Shown: piece after piece, positions 7,965 through 64,000 of the stretch
How the letters are laid out: each line of letters opens with the position of its first letter
Position numbering within the stretch: position 1 is the first letter of the stretch
DNA from: Escherichia coli
Lineage (GTDB): Bacteria; Pseudomonadota; Gammaproteobacteria; Enterobacterales; Enterobacteriaceae
Strand: one strand, 5' to 3'
NCBI RefSeq assembly: GCF_002854065.1
Contig: NZ_CP024147.1
DNA length: 64,000 nt
Program-made: the position numbers and the translations under genes
Notes under the pieces: model-generated
What the model was told of the DNA's origin: nothing
The model's database searches: none
The model's input: only the letters and a program-made list of their open reading frames with translations

Positions 7965-8693
7965 TCATTCATAATATGTTTTCACCGTTCGCTTAGGCAT
8001 AAACTGCCGGAACAGTTCCCTGCTCTTTAATGGTTTACCGCCAAGATACGGCTTAAGCGCCATGCGGGTAAAGCGTTTCGCGGCGCGCAGTGTGTCTGCG
8101 TCAGGAAATTCCCGCGCGTTTAACGCTTTTAACTGCCTTCCGGTGAACGTTTTATTGTCGATAACGACGCTTGCGATAAACCCTTTTTCTTCGCGATAAC
8201 GATACGTCATGGTGTCATCTACCGGCTCGCCGCTACCCGCGCAATGGGTAAAATTGACGCCATAGCCCAGATGCCCGAGCAGTGCCAGTTCAAAGCGGCG
8301 CAGCGCGGGTTCTGGCGTACCAGTGGCACCTGCAAGAGACTGAATGCAGTGCAAGTAATCGAAAAAGAGTTCAGAGAAGCGCGTCTCGTATTCCAGTACG
8401 CGGGAGAGAAGTTCGTTGATGTACAGACCGCTGTAAAGCGTGATACCGCTTAATGGCAGCGCCAGCGAGACAGCTTCAGCACTGCGCAGCGTTTTGACTT
8501 CGCCACGCCCGCCGAAACGTAGCAAGAGAGGGGTGAAAGGCTGTAATGCACCTTTCAGGGTAGAGCGTTTAGAGCGTGCGCCTTTCGCAACCAGACGCAC
8601 GCGACCCGATTCCTCCGTGAAGACGTCCAGCATCAGGCTGGTTTCGCTCCACGGGCGACTATGCAGGACAAATGCGCGCTGCCAGCCTTCCAT
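7965..8693 (-). CDS. recO: DNA repair protein RecO
   Basis: 242-aa [37 protein letters not shown]... Confidence 0.95.
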
Positions 8694-32118: not shown

Positions 32119-32238
32119 ATGCCTGGCAGTTCCCTACTCTCGCATGGGGAGACCCCACACTACCATCGGCGCTACGGCGTTTCACTTCTGAGTTCGGCAT
32201 GGGGTCAGGTGGGACCACCGCGCTACGGCCGCCAGGCA
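32119..32238 (-). rRNA. rrfG: 5S ribosomal RNA
   Basis: 120-nt reverse-complement match to E. coli 5S rRNA (TGCCTGGCGGC...GGAACTGCCAGGCAT). Confidence 0.95.
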
Positions 32239-32330
32239 AATTCTGTTTTATCAGACCGCTTCTGCGTTCTGATTTAATCTGTATCAGGCTGAAAATCTTC
32301 TCTCATCCGCCAAAACAGCTTCGGCGTTGT

Positions 32331-35233
<2,903 letters not shown>

Positions 35234-35426
35234 TCACAACCCGAAGATGTTTCTTGCGACTCATCATCGTGTTGCGAAAATTTGAGAGACTCACGAACAA
35301 CTTTCGTTGTTCAGTGTTTCAATTTTCAGCTTGATCCAGATTTTTAAAGAGCAAATATCTCAAACATCACCCGAAGATGAGTTTTGAGATATTAAGGTCG
35401 GCGACTTTCACTCACAAACCAGCAAG

Positions 35427-35502
35427 TGGCGTCCCCTAGGGGATTCGAACCCCTGTTACCGCCGTGAAAGGGCGGTGTCCTGGGCCTCTAGACGAAGGGG
35501 AC
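35427..35502 (-). tRNA. gltW: tRNA-Glu (spacer tRNA of the rrn operon)
   Basis: 76-nt reverse-complement match to GTCCCCTTCGTCTAGAGGCCCAGGACACCGCCCTTTCACGGCGGTAACAGGGGTTCGAATCCCCTAGGGGACGCCA. Confidence 0.95.
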
Positions 35503-35587
35503 GTATCAGTCTGCTTCGCAAGACGCCTTGCTTTTCACTTTCTATCAGACAATCTGTGTGAGCACTGCAAAGAACGCTTCTTTAAGG

Positions 35588-37129
<1,542 letters not shown>

Positions 37130-60757: not shown

Positions 60758-61240
60758 ATGACGAAGAAAAAAGCACATAAACCTGGTTCAGCGACCATCG
60801 CGCTTAACAAGCGCGCCCGTCACGAATACTTTATCGAAGAAGAGTTCGAAGCGGGACTTGCCCTGCAAGGCTGGGAAGTTAAATCCCTGCGCGCAGGAAA
60901 AGCCAATATCAGCGACAGCTACGTCCTTCTGCGTGACGGAGAGGCATTTCTGTTTGGCGCTAACATCACGCCAATGGCCGTGGCCTCCACGCATGTGGTG
61001 TGCGATCCTACCCGTACCCGCAAGTTACTTCTCAACCAGCGCGAACTGGACTCATTGTACGGTCGCGTCAATCGAGAAGGCTATACCGTAGTGGCGCTCT
61101 CCCTGTACTGGAAAAATGCCTGGTGCAAAGTGAAAATCGGCGTCGCCAAAGGTAAGAAACAGCACGATAAACGTTCAGATATCAAAGAGCGCGAATGGCA
61201 GGTGGATAAAGCGCGTATCATGAAAAATGCCCACCGTTAA
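60758..61240 (+). CDS. smpB: SsrA-binding protein SmpB
   Basis: 160-aa [48 protein letters not shown]... Confidence 0.97.
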
Positions 61241-61454
61241 ACCTGCACTCCAATTATTGACCAGTTCCTCACCGCGCCTCCCTCTCCGGCGGCGCGAATG
61301 AACATCTTATTGGTTATCACATCCGACACAAATGTTGCCATTCCATTGCTTAATCGAATAAAAATCAGGCTACATGGGTGCTAAATCTTTAACGATAACG
61401 CCATTGAGGCTGGTCATGGCGCTCATAAATCTGGTATACTTACCTTTACACATT

Positions 61455-61817
61455 GGGGCTGATTCTGGATTCGACGGGATTTGCGAAACCCAAGGTGCAT
61501 GCCGAGGGGCGGTTGGCCTCGTAAAAAGCCGCAAAAAATAGTCGCAAACGACGAAAACTACGCTTTAGCAGCTTAATAACCTGCTTAGAGCCCTCTCTCC
61601 CTAGCCTCCGCTCTTAGGACGGGGATCAAGAGAGGTCAAACCCAAAAGAGATCGCGTGGAAGCCCTGCCTGGGGTTGAAGCGTTAAAACTTAATCAGGCT
61701 AGTTTGTTAGTGGCGTGTCCGTCCGCAGCTGGCAAGCGAATGTAAAGACTGACTAAGCATGTAGTACCGAGGATGTAGGAATTTCGGACGCGGGTTCAAC
61801 TCCCGCCAGCTCCACCA
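61455..61817 (+). ncRNA. ssrA: tmRNA (SsrA), 363 nt
   Basis: Starts GGGGCTGATTCTGGATTCGACGGG, contains tag reading frame GCAAACGACGAAAACTACGCTTTAGCAGCTTAA (ANDENYALAA*), ends with tRNA-like ...GGTTCAACTCCCGCCAGCTCCACCA. Confidence 0.97.
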
Positions 61818-61862
61818 AAATTCTCCATCGGTGATTACCAGAGTCATCCGATGAAGTCCTAA

Positions 61863-61897
61863 GAGCCCGCACGGCGCAAGCCCTGCGGGCTTTTTTG
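61863..61897 (+). terminator. Rho-independent terminator after ssrA
   Basis: GC-rich hairpin (GCCCGCACGGCGCAAGCCCTGCGGGC) followed by TTTTTTGTG. Confidence 0.65.
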
Positions 61898-62020
61898 TGC
61901 CCTGAATTTGTCCCGCGAAGTCCGAAGAGAACTAATTAAATCCGAACCTTTTAGGCCCATTGATAGGCCCAACGAAAAGCTCTATTGTTTTCGTTGGGCC
62001 TAAACGCATGGAGACTCCCC

Positions 62021-63262
62021 ATGGCAAGAAAAACCAAGCCGTTAACCGATACGGAAATCAAAGCCGCCAAACCTAAAGATGCCGATTACCAGCTGTATGA
62101 TGGTGACGGGCTTACTCTGCTAATCAAGTCCAGCGGTAGTAAGCTCTGGCAGTTCCGTTACTATCGACCTCTGACCAAGCAGCGAACCAAGCAGAGCTTC
62201 GGAGCCTATCCAGCCGTCTCCCTTTCTGATGCGCGTAAACTCAGAGCTGAATCTCGAGCTTTGTTGGCGAAAGACATTGATCCTCAGGAACATCAGAAAG
62301 AACAGGTGAGAAATTCTCAAGAGGCCAAAACCAACACTTTCCGGTTAGTTGCCGAGCGTTGGTGGAATGTGAAGAAAGCCAGCGTAACAGAGGACTATGC
62401 CGACGATATCTGGCGCTCGCTTGAGAGGGATGTTCTCCCGGCAATCGGTGATATCAGTGTCACTGAGATTAAGGCTCATACTTTGGTTAAAGCAGTTCAT
62501 CCGGTTCAGGCCAGAGGTGCATTAGAGACAGTCCGCCGCCTTTGTCAGCGTATTAACGAAGTCATGATTTATGCGCAGAACACAGGCCTGATTGATGCGG
62601 TTCCCAGCGTAAACATCGGGAAAGCATTCGAGAAACCGCAAAAGAAAAACATGCCAAGCATCCACCCAGGTCAACTTCCACAGCTAATGCAGACTATGCG
62701 TACGGCAAGTATCAGCCTGTCCACACGATGCCTGTTCATGTGGCAGCTTCTCACCATCACCCGCCCTGCCGAAGCTGCTGAGGCTCGATGGGATGAGATC
62801 GATTTCGATGCTAGCGAATGGAAAATTCCAGCTGCTCGAATGAAGATGAATCGGGAGCATACGGTTCCATTATCTGATGGAGCTCTCGCTATTCTGGAAA
62901 TAATGAAGTCTCTCAGCGGTGGTCGAGAATTTATCTTTCCCAGTCGCATTAAGCCTACCCAGCCGATGAACAGCCAGACAGTAAATGCAGCCCTTAAGCG
63001 TGCTGGTTTAGGAGGCGTACTCGTTTCACACGGCTTACGTTCTATTGCCAGTACGGCACTCAATGAGGAAGGATTTCCGCCTGATGTTATTGAGGCTGCA
63101 CTTGCTCATGTAGATAAGAATGAGGTACGTCGCGCTTACAATCGAAGTGACTATCTTGAGCAACGACGACCGATGATGCAGTGGTGGGCTGATTTTGTTA
63201 AAGCAGCAGATAGCGGCAGTATCGTGAATAGTGGGGTTAGGGGAATACGTCTTGTAGGATGA
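62021..63262 (+). CDS. intA: P4-type tyrosine integrase (prophage integrase at ssrA)
   Basis: ORF 61985..63262 (TTG start) trimmed to the ATG at 62021 (MARKTKPLTDTEIKAAKPKDADYQLYDGDGLTLLIKSSGSKLWQFRYY...), 413 aa; C-terminal catalytic region with HGLRSIAST...LAH...Y. Position directly downstream of ssrA is typical of CP4-57-like islands. Confidence 0.9.
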   Translation: MARKTKPLTDTEIKAAKPKDADYQLYDGDGLTLLIKSSGSKLWQFRYYRPLTKQRTKQSFGAYPAVSLSDARKLRAESRALLAKDIDPQEHQKEQVRNSQEAKTNTFRLVAERWWNVKKASVTEDYADDIWRSLERDVLPAIGDISVTEIKAHTLVKAVHPVQARGALETVRRLCQRINEVMIYAQNTGLIDAVPSVNIGKAFEKPQKKNMPSIHPGQLPQLMQTMRTASISLSTRCLFMWQLLTITRPAEAAEARWDEIDFDASEWKIPAARMKMNREHTVPLSDGALAILEIMKSLSGGREFIFPSRIKPTQPMNSQTVNAALKRAGLGGVLVSHGLRSIASTALNEEGFPPDVIEAALAHVDKNEVRRAYNRSDYLEQRRPMMQWWADFVKAADSGSIVNSGVRGIRLVG

Positions 63263-63536
63263 ATCCTTTATCAGCACCCATTATGGGTGCTGATAACTCA
63301 CCTATAGGTAATACGGAATTTTACCCTTTGGTTTTCTTTTTTCTAGTAACCGTATTATCGAAAGCCAATTTGATACTCTCAATATTTCTTGACCAGTTTT
63401 TTATAATGGTATCTGCCAATGCATCAGGGCTCATTGTTGATATCCGATATTTTTTACTTTGATTATTAATTTCAAAATTTGGGTGATGCTGCCAACTTAC
63501 TGATTTAGTGTATGATGGTGTTTTTGAGGTGCTCCA

Positions 63537-63812
63537 GTGGCTTCTGTTTCTATCAGCTGTCCCTCCTGTTCAGCTACTGACGGGGTGGTGCGTAACGGCA
63601 AAAGCACTGCCGGACATCAGCGCTATCTCTGCTCTCACTGCCGTAAAACATGGCAACTGCAGTTCACTTACACCGCTTCTCAACCCGGTACGCACCAGAA
63701 AATCATTGATATGGCCATGAATGGCGTTGGATGCCGGGCAACCGCCCGCATTATGGGCGTTGGCCTCAACACGATTTTCCGCCATTTAAAAAACTCAGGC
63801 CGCAGTCGGTAA
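63537..63812 (+). CDS. insA: IS1 transposition regulator InsA
   Basis: 91-aa [46 protein letters not shown]... (zinc-finger + HTH); A6C slippery run TTAAAAAACTC near its 3' end. Confidence 0.93.
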
Positions 63813-64000
63813 CCTCGCGCATACAGCCGGGCAGTGACGTCATCGTCTGCGCGGAAATGGACGAACAGTGGGGATACGTCGGGGCTAAATCGCGCCAGCG
63901 CTGGCTGTTTTACGCGTATGACAGGCTCCGGAAGACGGTTGTTGCGCACGTATTCGGTGAACGCACTATGGCGACGCTGGGGCGTCTTATGAGCCTGCTG
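63731..64000 (+). CDS. insB: IS1 transposase InsB (partial, 5' part; -1 frame relative to insA)
   Basis: From ATG at 63731: [90 protein letters not shown]... open to window end. Confidence 0.8.

What the first reader, a model, noticed from the sequence alone, without database searches (positions are those of the whole stretch)
61818..63262. ssrA 3' end followed by an intact P4-family integrase: boundary of a genomic island
The tmRNA 3' end is a classic phage and island attachment site, and a full-length 413-aa integrase with conserved catalytic residues sits 200 bp downstream. Everything to the left is core genome; everything to the right (integrase, AT-rich DNA, IS1) is accessory. The island itself is mostly outside the window, so its cargo cannot be assessed from this sequence.
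Basis: partly seen in the sequence, partly recalled or inferred. Interest (0 to 1): 0.4.

Follow-up and report, generated by a model that had tools for sequence, protein, structure and literature searches.

The report
ssrA island stump: integrase cut by IS1
This is the well-known spot in E. coli where a CP4-57-type mobile island sits at the end of the tmRNA gene, but only its left edge and an intact integrase gene are visible before an IS1 element cuts it off, so it is ordinary and probably a dead remnant.

Summary
The tmRNA gene ssrA ends at 61817. A 413-aa tyrosine integrase runs from 62021 to 63262, 203 bp downstream. IS1 starts at 63482.

The integrase is 94% identical to E. coli K-12 IntA (CP4-57) and 36% identical to phage P4 Int. 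It has all three P4-type domains and the catalytic residues R248, K, H337, R340, H363 and Y373. Upstream of it lie two direct and one inverted 12-bp repeat, laid out as in P4 attP.

The region is the left junction (attL) of a CP4-57-family island. The island DNA supplies the ssrA 3' end and its terminator.

However, IS1 cuts the island 220 bp after the integrase, inside a convergent yfjH-position gene. The excision activator gene alpA, expected about 1 kb further on, is not reached. No attR-like sequence lies in the window.

Intact islands with the identical integrase are about 18.25 kb and carry a type III restriction-modification-like module. In the only complete genome of the same clone with this allele (CUWW06), IS1 is fused to a truncated core gene, ygaQ. 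The island, attR and about 9 kb of flanking chromosome are gone.

The window most likely holds an immobilised integrase-only stump. This is inferred, not shown, because the window ends inside IS1. It is known biology of low interest.

The parts
61455..61817 (+). ssrA (tmRNA) gene, the integration target
   Evidence: ARAGORN. Rfam RF00023, 295.8 bits. 363/363 identical to K-12 ssrA.
61799..61817 (+). attL core ACTCCCGCCAGCTCCACCA, the last 19 nt of ssrA. It is shared imperfectly with attR of related islands.
   Evidence: attL was compared with attR in K-12 and in six intact islands that carry the identical integrase. attR reads ACTCCGCCAGCC(CACC)A followed by ATCATGATTGGACGG.
61818..61897 (+). 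ssrA 3' trailer and rho-independent terminator (hairpin 61861-61894, T run 61891-61896). This is carried on island DNA.
   Evidence: Inverted repeat I3 and terminator scan. In strain 100416 a P2-like prophage supplies a different trailer and terminator after the same CCA.
61952..62002 (+). Putative arm-type integrase binding sites (P' arm). Direct repeats TAGGCCCATTGA (61952-61963) and TAGGCCCAACGA (61964-61975), and an inverted copy at 61991-62002. They overlap a promoter-like site (-35 at 61960-61965, -10 at 61983-61988).
   Evidence: Repeats D4 and I1 and promoter scan. The 2-direct-plus-1-inverted layout just before the int start matches the annotated P4 attP. It is conserved in K-12. Function is inferred by analogy.
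62021..63262 (+). intA-type integrase, 413 aa, intact
   Evidence: Pfam, three domains. NCBIfam PRK09692. 94% identity to K-12 IntA without gaps. 36% identity over 402 aa, E 2e-85, to P4 Int. R248/K/H337/R340/H363/Y373. pN/pS about 0.08 against K-12 intA.
63268..63296 (.). Perfect 14-bp-arm hairpin between the convergent genes. It is a likely bidirectional terminator.
   Evidence: Inverted repeat I2.
63321..63481 (-). 3' fragment (last 52 codons plus stop) of a 292-aa hypothetical gene at the position of K-12 yfjH, truncated by IS1. This is the 'AT-rich DNA'.
   Evidence: The translation matches the C-terminus of the 292-aa product in intact islands. Window and L003 are identical up to offset +219, then diverge. 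G+C is 32%.
63482..64000 (+). IS1, first 519 of 768 bp, cut by the window end. The left inverted repeat faces the integrase. InsA is at 63537-63812.
   Evidence: IRL GGTGATGCTGCC at 63482. Pfam InsA domains. 519/519 identical to the IS1 next to intA in CUWW06. The junction was seen independently in metagenome contig L023.

Best explanation
This is the left junction (attL) of a CP4-57-family integrative island in E. coli.

Shown by sequence and comparison:
- A P4-type tyrosine integrase recombined the element's attP with the last ~19 nt of ssrA.
- The island therefore supplies the functional ssrA 3' end, its trailer and its terminator.
- The integrase's P'-arm binding repeats overlap the int promoter, and an intact intA follows.
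- IS1 cuts the island 220 bp beyond int, inside the next gene.
- The window therefore lacks alpA (the activator of intA-dependent excision), all cargo and attR.

Inferred:
- The IS1 marks an IS1-associated deletion that removed the rest of the ~18-kb island.
- That deletion probably also removed attR and flanking chromosome.
- What remains is an immobile integrase-only stump that permanently fixes ssrA in its functional form.
For: Identity of the parts:
- tmRNA.
- Integrase domains, family and catalytic residues.
- 94% identity to K-12 IntA at the same locus.

att logic:
- attL and attR cores were defined in K-12 and in six intact ~18.25-kb islands with the identical Int.
- The right flank ATCATGATTGGACGG leads to ypjA.
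- Arm repeats have the P4 attP layout.

Truncation:
- The window equals the intact island up to +219 after int, then IS1 follows.
- There is no attR-like core or native right flank in 61818-64000 at up to 2 errors.

Deletion inference:
- Core sequence 40000-61800 is 100% identical to CUWW06 and 100416 only.
- CUWW06 has the same int and the same IS1 sequence, with no target duplication (left GCCAATTTG, right CACAATCCA).
- In CUWW06 the IS1 right end is fused to truncated ygaQ just before glaH.
- 100416 keeps ypjA-ileY-ygaQ, so about 9 kb of core was lost in CUWW06.
- MS 115-1 (99.8% identical over ssrA 3' end-int-flank) also ends at an IS1 without attR.
- The same IS1 isoform, in the same orientation, sits at +111, +220, +523 and +5521 from int in near-identical backgrounds. 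This is the pattern of nested IS1-adjacent deletions.

Literature:
- CP4-57 excision is induced by AlpA and deletes T357 of ssrA, inactivating tmRNA (PMC10107115).
- Islands restore the split t(m)RNA gene (PMC4383910).
Against: - The window ends 519 bp into IS1, so what follows IS1 in this genome is unknown.
- The source genome was not found in 5426 complete E. coli genomes, GTDB representative genomes or JGI metagenome contigs.
- The CUWW06 IS1 junction is 109 bp closer to int than in the window, so the two loci are not the same state.
- Constant IS1 orientation at four junctions is only weak statistical support (about 1/8 by chance).
- The MS 115-1 IS1 is a different isoform, that is, an independent event.
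- Integrase activity and arm-site binding were not tested.
Confidence: 0.68

Rival explanations
1. The island is complete and carries a simple IS1 insertion. IS1 merely interrupts the yfjH-position gene. The remaining ~18 kb (alpA, yfjI, yfjJ-like, cargo, toxin-antitoxin, attR) continues beyond the window, and the island could still excise.
For: - Intact ~18.25-kb islands with the identical integrase exist next to ssrA in several draft genomes.
- L009 differs from the window by 1 base in 11.4 kb and has no IS1 up to +646.
- IS1 prefers AT-rich targets such as this 32% G+C stretch (established knowledge).
Against: - No complete genome among 5426 shows this allele with an IS1 and a continuing island.
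- Both complete genomes that have an IS1 next to this allele (CUWW06, MS 115-1) lack attR.
- CUWW06, the clone-mate, shows no target duplication.
- The same IS1 isoform, in one orientation, sits at four different junctions.
Confidence: 0.27
2. The integrase belongs to a true prophage or P4-like phage satellite rather than to a non-phage island.
For: - 36% identity to P4 Int and a P4-like attP arm layout.
- An 85.5% identical integrase is found in a record deposited as Klebsiella phage Kp4865-2.
Against: - Intact relatives carry no capsid, tail, P4 alpha/sid/psu/delta or lysis genes.
- They carry alpA, DUF3987/yfjI, yfjJ-like, type III RM-like genes, antirestriction, radC and a CbtA/CbeA toxin-antitoxin pair, as CP4-57 does.
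- The prophages seen at this site in relatives use their own integrases and longer ssrA cores.
Confidence: 0.03
3. The int/IS1 junction is an assembly artefact caused by a repeat-induced misjoin.
For: IS1 is multicopy, and the window ends inside it.
Against: An independent metagenome contig (ERZ27255804, L023) is identical to window 61763-63621, including 140 nt of IS1 across the same junction.
Confidence: 0.02

Closest known systems
CP4-57 cryptic prophage/island of E. coli K-12 (intA-ypjF, at ssrA)
   Same: - Same chromosomal site and same attL core.
- The ssrA trailer, terminator and arm-repeat region are nearly identical.
- IntA is 94% identical, of equal length and without gaps.
- Intact relatives share the backbone yfjH-position gene, alpA, yfjI, yfjJ ... 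yfjP/Q/R/S/T, antirestriction, radC and ypjF/yfjZ.
   Different: - Here only attL, int and 220 bp survive before IS1.
- Intact relatives with this int allele carry a type III RM-like module (708-aa Mod, 856-aa ResIII/YagJ, 512-aa protein) where K-12 has abpAB/rnlAB.
- The convergent gene after int is 292 aa, against the 318-aa YfjH.
Satellite phage P4 integrase and attP
   Same: - Int is 36% identical over 402 aa, with the same three domains.
- The core lies at the 3' CCA end of a t(m)RNA gene.
- Two tandem 12-bp arm repeats plus one inverted copy lie immediately upstream of the int start. Two tandem repeats lie on the other arm.
   Different: - The target is different: ssrA rather than a leucine tRNA gene (the P4 target is from established knowledge, not tested here).
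- The arm repeat sequence is different: TAGGCCCA rather than TTGGGGGCA.
- No P4 replication or helper-exploitation genes are present.
Integrase-only island stumps made by IS-mediated deletion (example: E. coli CUWW06, same locus)
   Same: - Identical int allele and an identical IS1 sequence in the same orientation, in the same clone.
   Different: - The CUWW06 junction is at +111, not +220.
- CUWW06 has a P2-like prophage inserted between ssrA and int.
- Its IS1 right side (ygaQ') is known, whereas the window's is not.

Membership tests
Tyrosine recombinase, P4-type integrase (IntA / PRK09692) | Catalytic residues R...K...HxxR...H...Y in the C-terminal domain | tested here: met
   R248, K in MKMNREH, H337, R340, H363 and Y373 align with the corresponding residues of P4 Int. 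Pfam PF00589 matches at E 3.6e-36.
Tyrosine recombinase, P4-type integrase (IntA / PRK09692) | N-terminal arm-binding domain (Arm-DNA-bind_3/DUF4102) plus a central core-binding domain | tested here: met
   PF13356 covers residues 8-95 and PF22022 covers 107-198. The solved N-terminal and central domains of CP4-like and CPS-53 integrases match.
Tyrosine recombinase, P4-type integrase (IntA / PRK09692) | Full-length sequence similarity to P4 Int and K-12 IntA | tested here: met
   36% identity over 402 aa, E 2e-85, to P4 Int. 94% identity over 413 aa to IntA. NCBIfam NF007246 scores 904 bits against a cut-off of 434.
Tyrosine recombinase, P4-type integrase (IntA / PRK09692) | Catalytic activity (integration or excision) | not testable with these tools
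   Only sequence integrity and purifying selection between alleles can be shown (pN/pS about 0.08).
CP4-57-family integrative island at ssrA | attL: island joined to the ssrA 3' end, with int adjacent and reading away from ssrA | tested here: met
CP4-57-family integrative island at ssrA | attR: an imperfect direct repeat of the ssrA 3' core, followed by the native flank ATCATGATTGGACGG | tested here: not met
   Absent from 61818-64000 at up to 2 errors. Only 2.2 kb is visible, so its absence from the genome is not proven. It is absent within 20 kb downstream in CUWW06 and MS 115-1.
CP4-57-family integrative island at ssrA | alpA (excision activator, Phage_AlpA) about 1 kb after int | tested here: not met
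   In intact relatives alpA starts at +1063. In the window IS1 begins at +220.
CP4-57-family integrative island at ssrA | Backbone and cargo genes (yfjI, yfjJ, defence module, antirestriction/radC, toxin-antitoxin) | not testable with these tools
   These lie outside the window. The source genome was not found.
IS1 | Terminal inverted repeat GGTGATGCTGCC... followed by insA | tested here: met
   IRL at 63482. InsA matches PF03811 and PF12759. 519/519 identical to an annotated IS1B.
IS1 | 9-bp target site duplication (simple insertion) as opposed to none (deletion or recombination) | not testable with these tools
   The right end lies beyond the window. The clone-mate CUWW06 has no duplication.

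The most novel reading that the evidence does not exclude
The stump may be retained by selection rather than left as debris.

CP4-57-type excision puts a defective core back into ssrA. In K-12 this loses T357. In relatives with this int allele the attR variants GCCAGCCA and GCCAGCCCCCA would be worse still. IS1-mediated loss of alpA and attR would then be an adaptive lock that protects tmRNA from the excision switch.

Nested deletions would stop short of int because one of two things is needed. Either the island-borne ssrA trailer and terminator are required, or the orphan IntA with its attL arm sites acts as a landing pad or trans-acting recombinase for incoming CP4-57-family islands.
Probability: 0.1. 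Interest if true: 0.4.

Novelty: already known. Interest (0 to 1): 0.12.

Why it matters
It matters little beyond correct annotation.

For annotation:
- The core/accessory boundary lies inside ssrA (about the last 19 nt), not after it.
- The ssrA terminator here is island-borne.
- An 'intact integrase next to a tRNA/tmRNA gene' does not imply a mobile island. Island-prediction pipelines would over-call this locus.

For biology:
- CP4-57 excision inactivates tmRNA and switches ribosome rescue to ArfA (PMC10107115).
- A strain that has lost alpA, and probably attR, has lost that switch.

The series of IS1 junctions at +111, +220, +523 and +5521 is a tidy natural example of IS1-driven erosion of an island. 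It is not a new phenomenon.

Tried and rejected
1. Source genome. I searched 5426 complete E. coli genomes with 61400-64000 and with the int/IS1 junction. No record has ssrA-int-IS1 contiguous at more than 95% identity, and none has the +220 junction.

2. Exact 40-nt junction scans of GTDB representative genomes and of JGI metagenome contigs gave 0 hits each.

3. An exact-protein look-up of the 37-aa residual ORF found one 1.9-kb metagenome contig. It is identical to the window across the junction but ends in IS1, so it says nothing about the right side.

4. I looked for a complete genome with the full island of this allele. None exists in the collection; MS 115-1 has only the first 5.2 kb before another IS1. 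The intact island had to be reconstructed from draft contigs.

5. I tested whether an IS1 sits at the CUWW06 ygaQ site with an intact left flank in other genomes, which would identify the ancestral IS1. No such genome was found.

6. An exact 11-mer search for attR failed even in K-12, because attR is imperfect. I replaced it with a search anchored on the native right flank.

7. Prophage and satellite readings were rejected on gene content.

8. I expected from memory that the ssrA sequence would differ from K-12. It is identical.

Full report
**Observation**

The finding's coordinates are accurate.
- ARAGORN calls a tmRNA gene at 61455-61817 with tag ANDENYALAA.
- Rfam RF00023 scores 295.8 bits, E 7e-122.
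- The gene is 363/363 identical to K-12 ssrA.
- smpB lies just upstream, at 60758-61240.

The integrase is also as described.
- An ORF with ATG at 62021 (GGAG 7 nt upstream) and stop ending at 63262 encodes 413 aa. It starts 203 bp after the CCA end.
- Pfam finds Arm-DNA-bind_3, Phage_int_M and Phage_integrase.
- NCBIfam PRK09692 matches end to end at 904 bits against a cut-off of 434.
- The protein is 94% identical, without gaps, to K-12 IntA of CP4-57.
- It is 36% identical over 402 aa (E 2e-85) to phage P4 Int.
- R248, the K of MKMNREH, H337, R340, H363 and Y373 align with the P4 catalytic residues.
- Against K-12 intA there are 83 synonymous and 24 non-synonymous codon differences, giving pN/pS of about 0.08.

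- Sequence 63263-63481 is 32% G+C.
- The IS1 left inverted repeat starts at 63482, with InsA at 63537-63812.
- The left side is core genome: 5336 of 5426 complete E. coli genomes hold at least 80% of 40000-61800.

**Anatomy of the junction**

I compared attL with attR in K-12 and in six intact islands that encode the identical integrase.
- attL reads ...TTCAACTCCCGCCAGCTCCACCA|AAATTC.
- attR reads ...CAATTCAGACTCCGCCAGCC(CACC)A|ATCATGATTGGACGG, and this leads into ypjA.
- The core is therefore about the last 19 nt of ssrA (61799-61817), and attR is an imperfect copy.

Everything from 61818 on is island DNA. This includes the ssrA trailer and its terminator (hairpin 61861-61894 plus a T run). 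Strain 100416 confirms it: its core is 100% identical, and a P2-like prophage supplies a different trailer and terminator after the same CCA. This is the general rule for islands in t(m)RNA genes (PMC4383910).

Just upstream of int lie repeats with the P4 attP layout.
- Two tandem 12-bp repeats: TAGGCCCATTGA at 61952 and TAGGCCCAACGA at 61964.
- One inverted copy at 61991-62002.
- They overlap a promoter-like site, with -35 at 61960 and -10 at 61983.
- The annotated P4 attP has the same layout. Two tandem 12-bp arm repeats plus one inverted copy abut the int start about 135 bp from a core that ends in CCA. Two tandem repeats lie on the other arm.
- The matching other-arm pair (TAGGACCAACAA, TGGGACCAAAAT) sits about 95 nt left of the attR core end in K-12 and in the intact relatives.

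I read these as arm-type Int sites. That is an inference by analogy and was not tested.

**The island is cut**

- Downstream of int, the window is identical to the intact island up to offset +219. Then IS1 begins.
- A perfect hairpin at 63268-63296 separates int from the last 52 codons of a convergent 292-aa hypothetical gene. This gene occupies the position of K-12 yfjH, and IS1 truncates it.
- In intact relatives the order after int is: the 292-aa gene, alpA at +1063, yfjI (DUF3987), a yfjJ-like gene, a 512-aa protein, an 856-aa ResIII/YagJ protein and a 708-aa type III methyltransferase.
- It continues with yfjP/Q/R/S/T-like genes, antirestriction, radC, DUF987 and a CbeA/CbtA pair, then attR. 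The total is about 18.25 kb.
- None of that is in the window.
- No attR-like core and no native right flank occur in 61818-64000, allowing up to 2 errors.

**What probably lies beyond the window**

The source genome could not be found. It is absent from the complete E. coli genomes, the GTDB representatives and the JGI metagenome contigs. One metagenome contig is identical to 61763-63621. It confirms that the junction is real but ends in IS1.

Only two complete genomes are 100% identical over 21.8 kb of adjacent core, and the next best are 99.4%.
- CUWW06 carries the same int allele and an identical IS1 (519/519). Its IS1 has no target duplication, and its right end is fused to a 5'-truncated ygaQ just before glaH.
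- 100416 has no island and keeps ypjA, pinH', ypjCB, ileY and ygaQ.
- CUWW06 has therefore lost the island, attR and about 9 kb of flanking chromosome.

MS 115-1, whose ssrA 3' end-int-flank segment is 99.8% identical to the window, likewise ends at an IS1 of a different isoform, at +5246. That IS1 lies next to ileY, and no attR is present.

Among loci with the identical Int, the same IS1 isoform in the same orientation sits at:
- +111 (CUWW06, L011, L012);
- +220 (the window, L023);
- +523 (L010);
- +5521 (L005-L007).

L007, L009 and L012 differ from the window by only 1-4 bases in 11.4 kb. This pattern fits nested IS1-adjacent deletions eroding the island towards int. The statistical support is weak. 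The +111 state could also arise from the +220 state by slippage between two AATTTG repeats.

I put the probability that the window's island is a stump at about two-thirds, and a simple IS1 insertion in an otherwise complete island at about one-quarter.

**Mechanism and consequence**

In K-12, AlpA overexpression induces CP4-57 excision. Excision deletes T357 of ssrA, inactivates tmRNA and switches ribosome rescue to ArfA (PMC10107115). The attR cores seen here explain this:
- GCCAGCCCACCA lacks the T;
- GCCAGCCA and GCCAGCCCCCA are more damaged still.

alpA is missing from its expected place in the window, and attR is probably missing too. The remnant therefore cannot excise by the normal route, and ssrA is fixed in its functional, island-completed form.

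**Comparison and verdict**

This is the known ssrA/CP4-57 arrangement. RefSeq already names this protein intA (WP_032282315.1). The expectation of a large island beyond the window is unsupported and probably wrong.

Novelty: already known. Interest: low.

Noticed in passing
L001 20001-20045; L013 18642-18668; L006 9771-9797; L008 9754-9797 (displaced ssrA 3' fragments just upstream of int): In many relatives another prophage sits between ssrA and this integrase. P2-like prophages duplicate the last 44-45 nt of ssrA. Lambdoid prophages duplicate the last 27 nt. IntA islands use about 19 nt. Three integrase types therefore use nested sublocations of the same gene end and stack in tandem.
   Followed up: partly
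L015 (strain 100416), around locus position 8057 (reverse strand): The displaced ssrA fragment at the far end of the P2-like prophage reads ...TTCAACTCCCGCCAGCCA|ATCATGATTGG. That is the left half of attL joined to the 'GCCAGCCA' right half of attR, the product expected from a past excision of an IntA island. The prophage now supplies the only functional ssrA 3' end.
   Followed up: partly
L016-L021, attR: Islands with the identical integrase carry three attR core variants: GCCAGCCCACCA, GCCAGCCA and GCCAGCCCCCA. Excision would leave a tmRNA with a damaged acceptor or CCA end in each case, and more severely than the K-12 T357 deletion.
   Followed up: no
L015 around locus position 2576 (between the pinH fragment and ypjCB): There is a second degenerate att-like site, ...CAATTCAGTCACTGCCAGCCCACCA. 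It is followed by sequence resembling the P2-like prophage end and terminator. This looks like a relic of older tandem integrations to the right of ssrA.
   Followed up: no
L018 7878-14229 (intact relative of the island): The variable cargo slot holds a type III RM-like trio. The 708-aa Mod matches PADLOC MTase_III at E 7e-294. The 856-aa ResIII/YagJ protein matches REase_III only weakly. The 512-aa protein has a faint SIR2-like hit. K-12 CP4-57 carries abpAB and rnlAB in the same slot.
   Followed up: partly
window 63367-63372 and 63476-63481: AATTTG occurs immediately before the IS1 end both in the window (+220) and at the CUWW06 junction site (+111). The +523 junction ends in ATTTTG. This reflects either an IS1 target preference or microhomology that could convert the +220 state into the +111 state.
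   Followed up: partly
window 32121-37129 (minus strand): A complete rRNA operon (16S, spacer tRNA, 23S, 5S) is present. Elsewhere in the window Rfam finds the rncO, Phe leader, RyfD and ohsC elements. This is ordinary E. coli core content.
   Followed up: no
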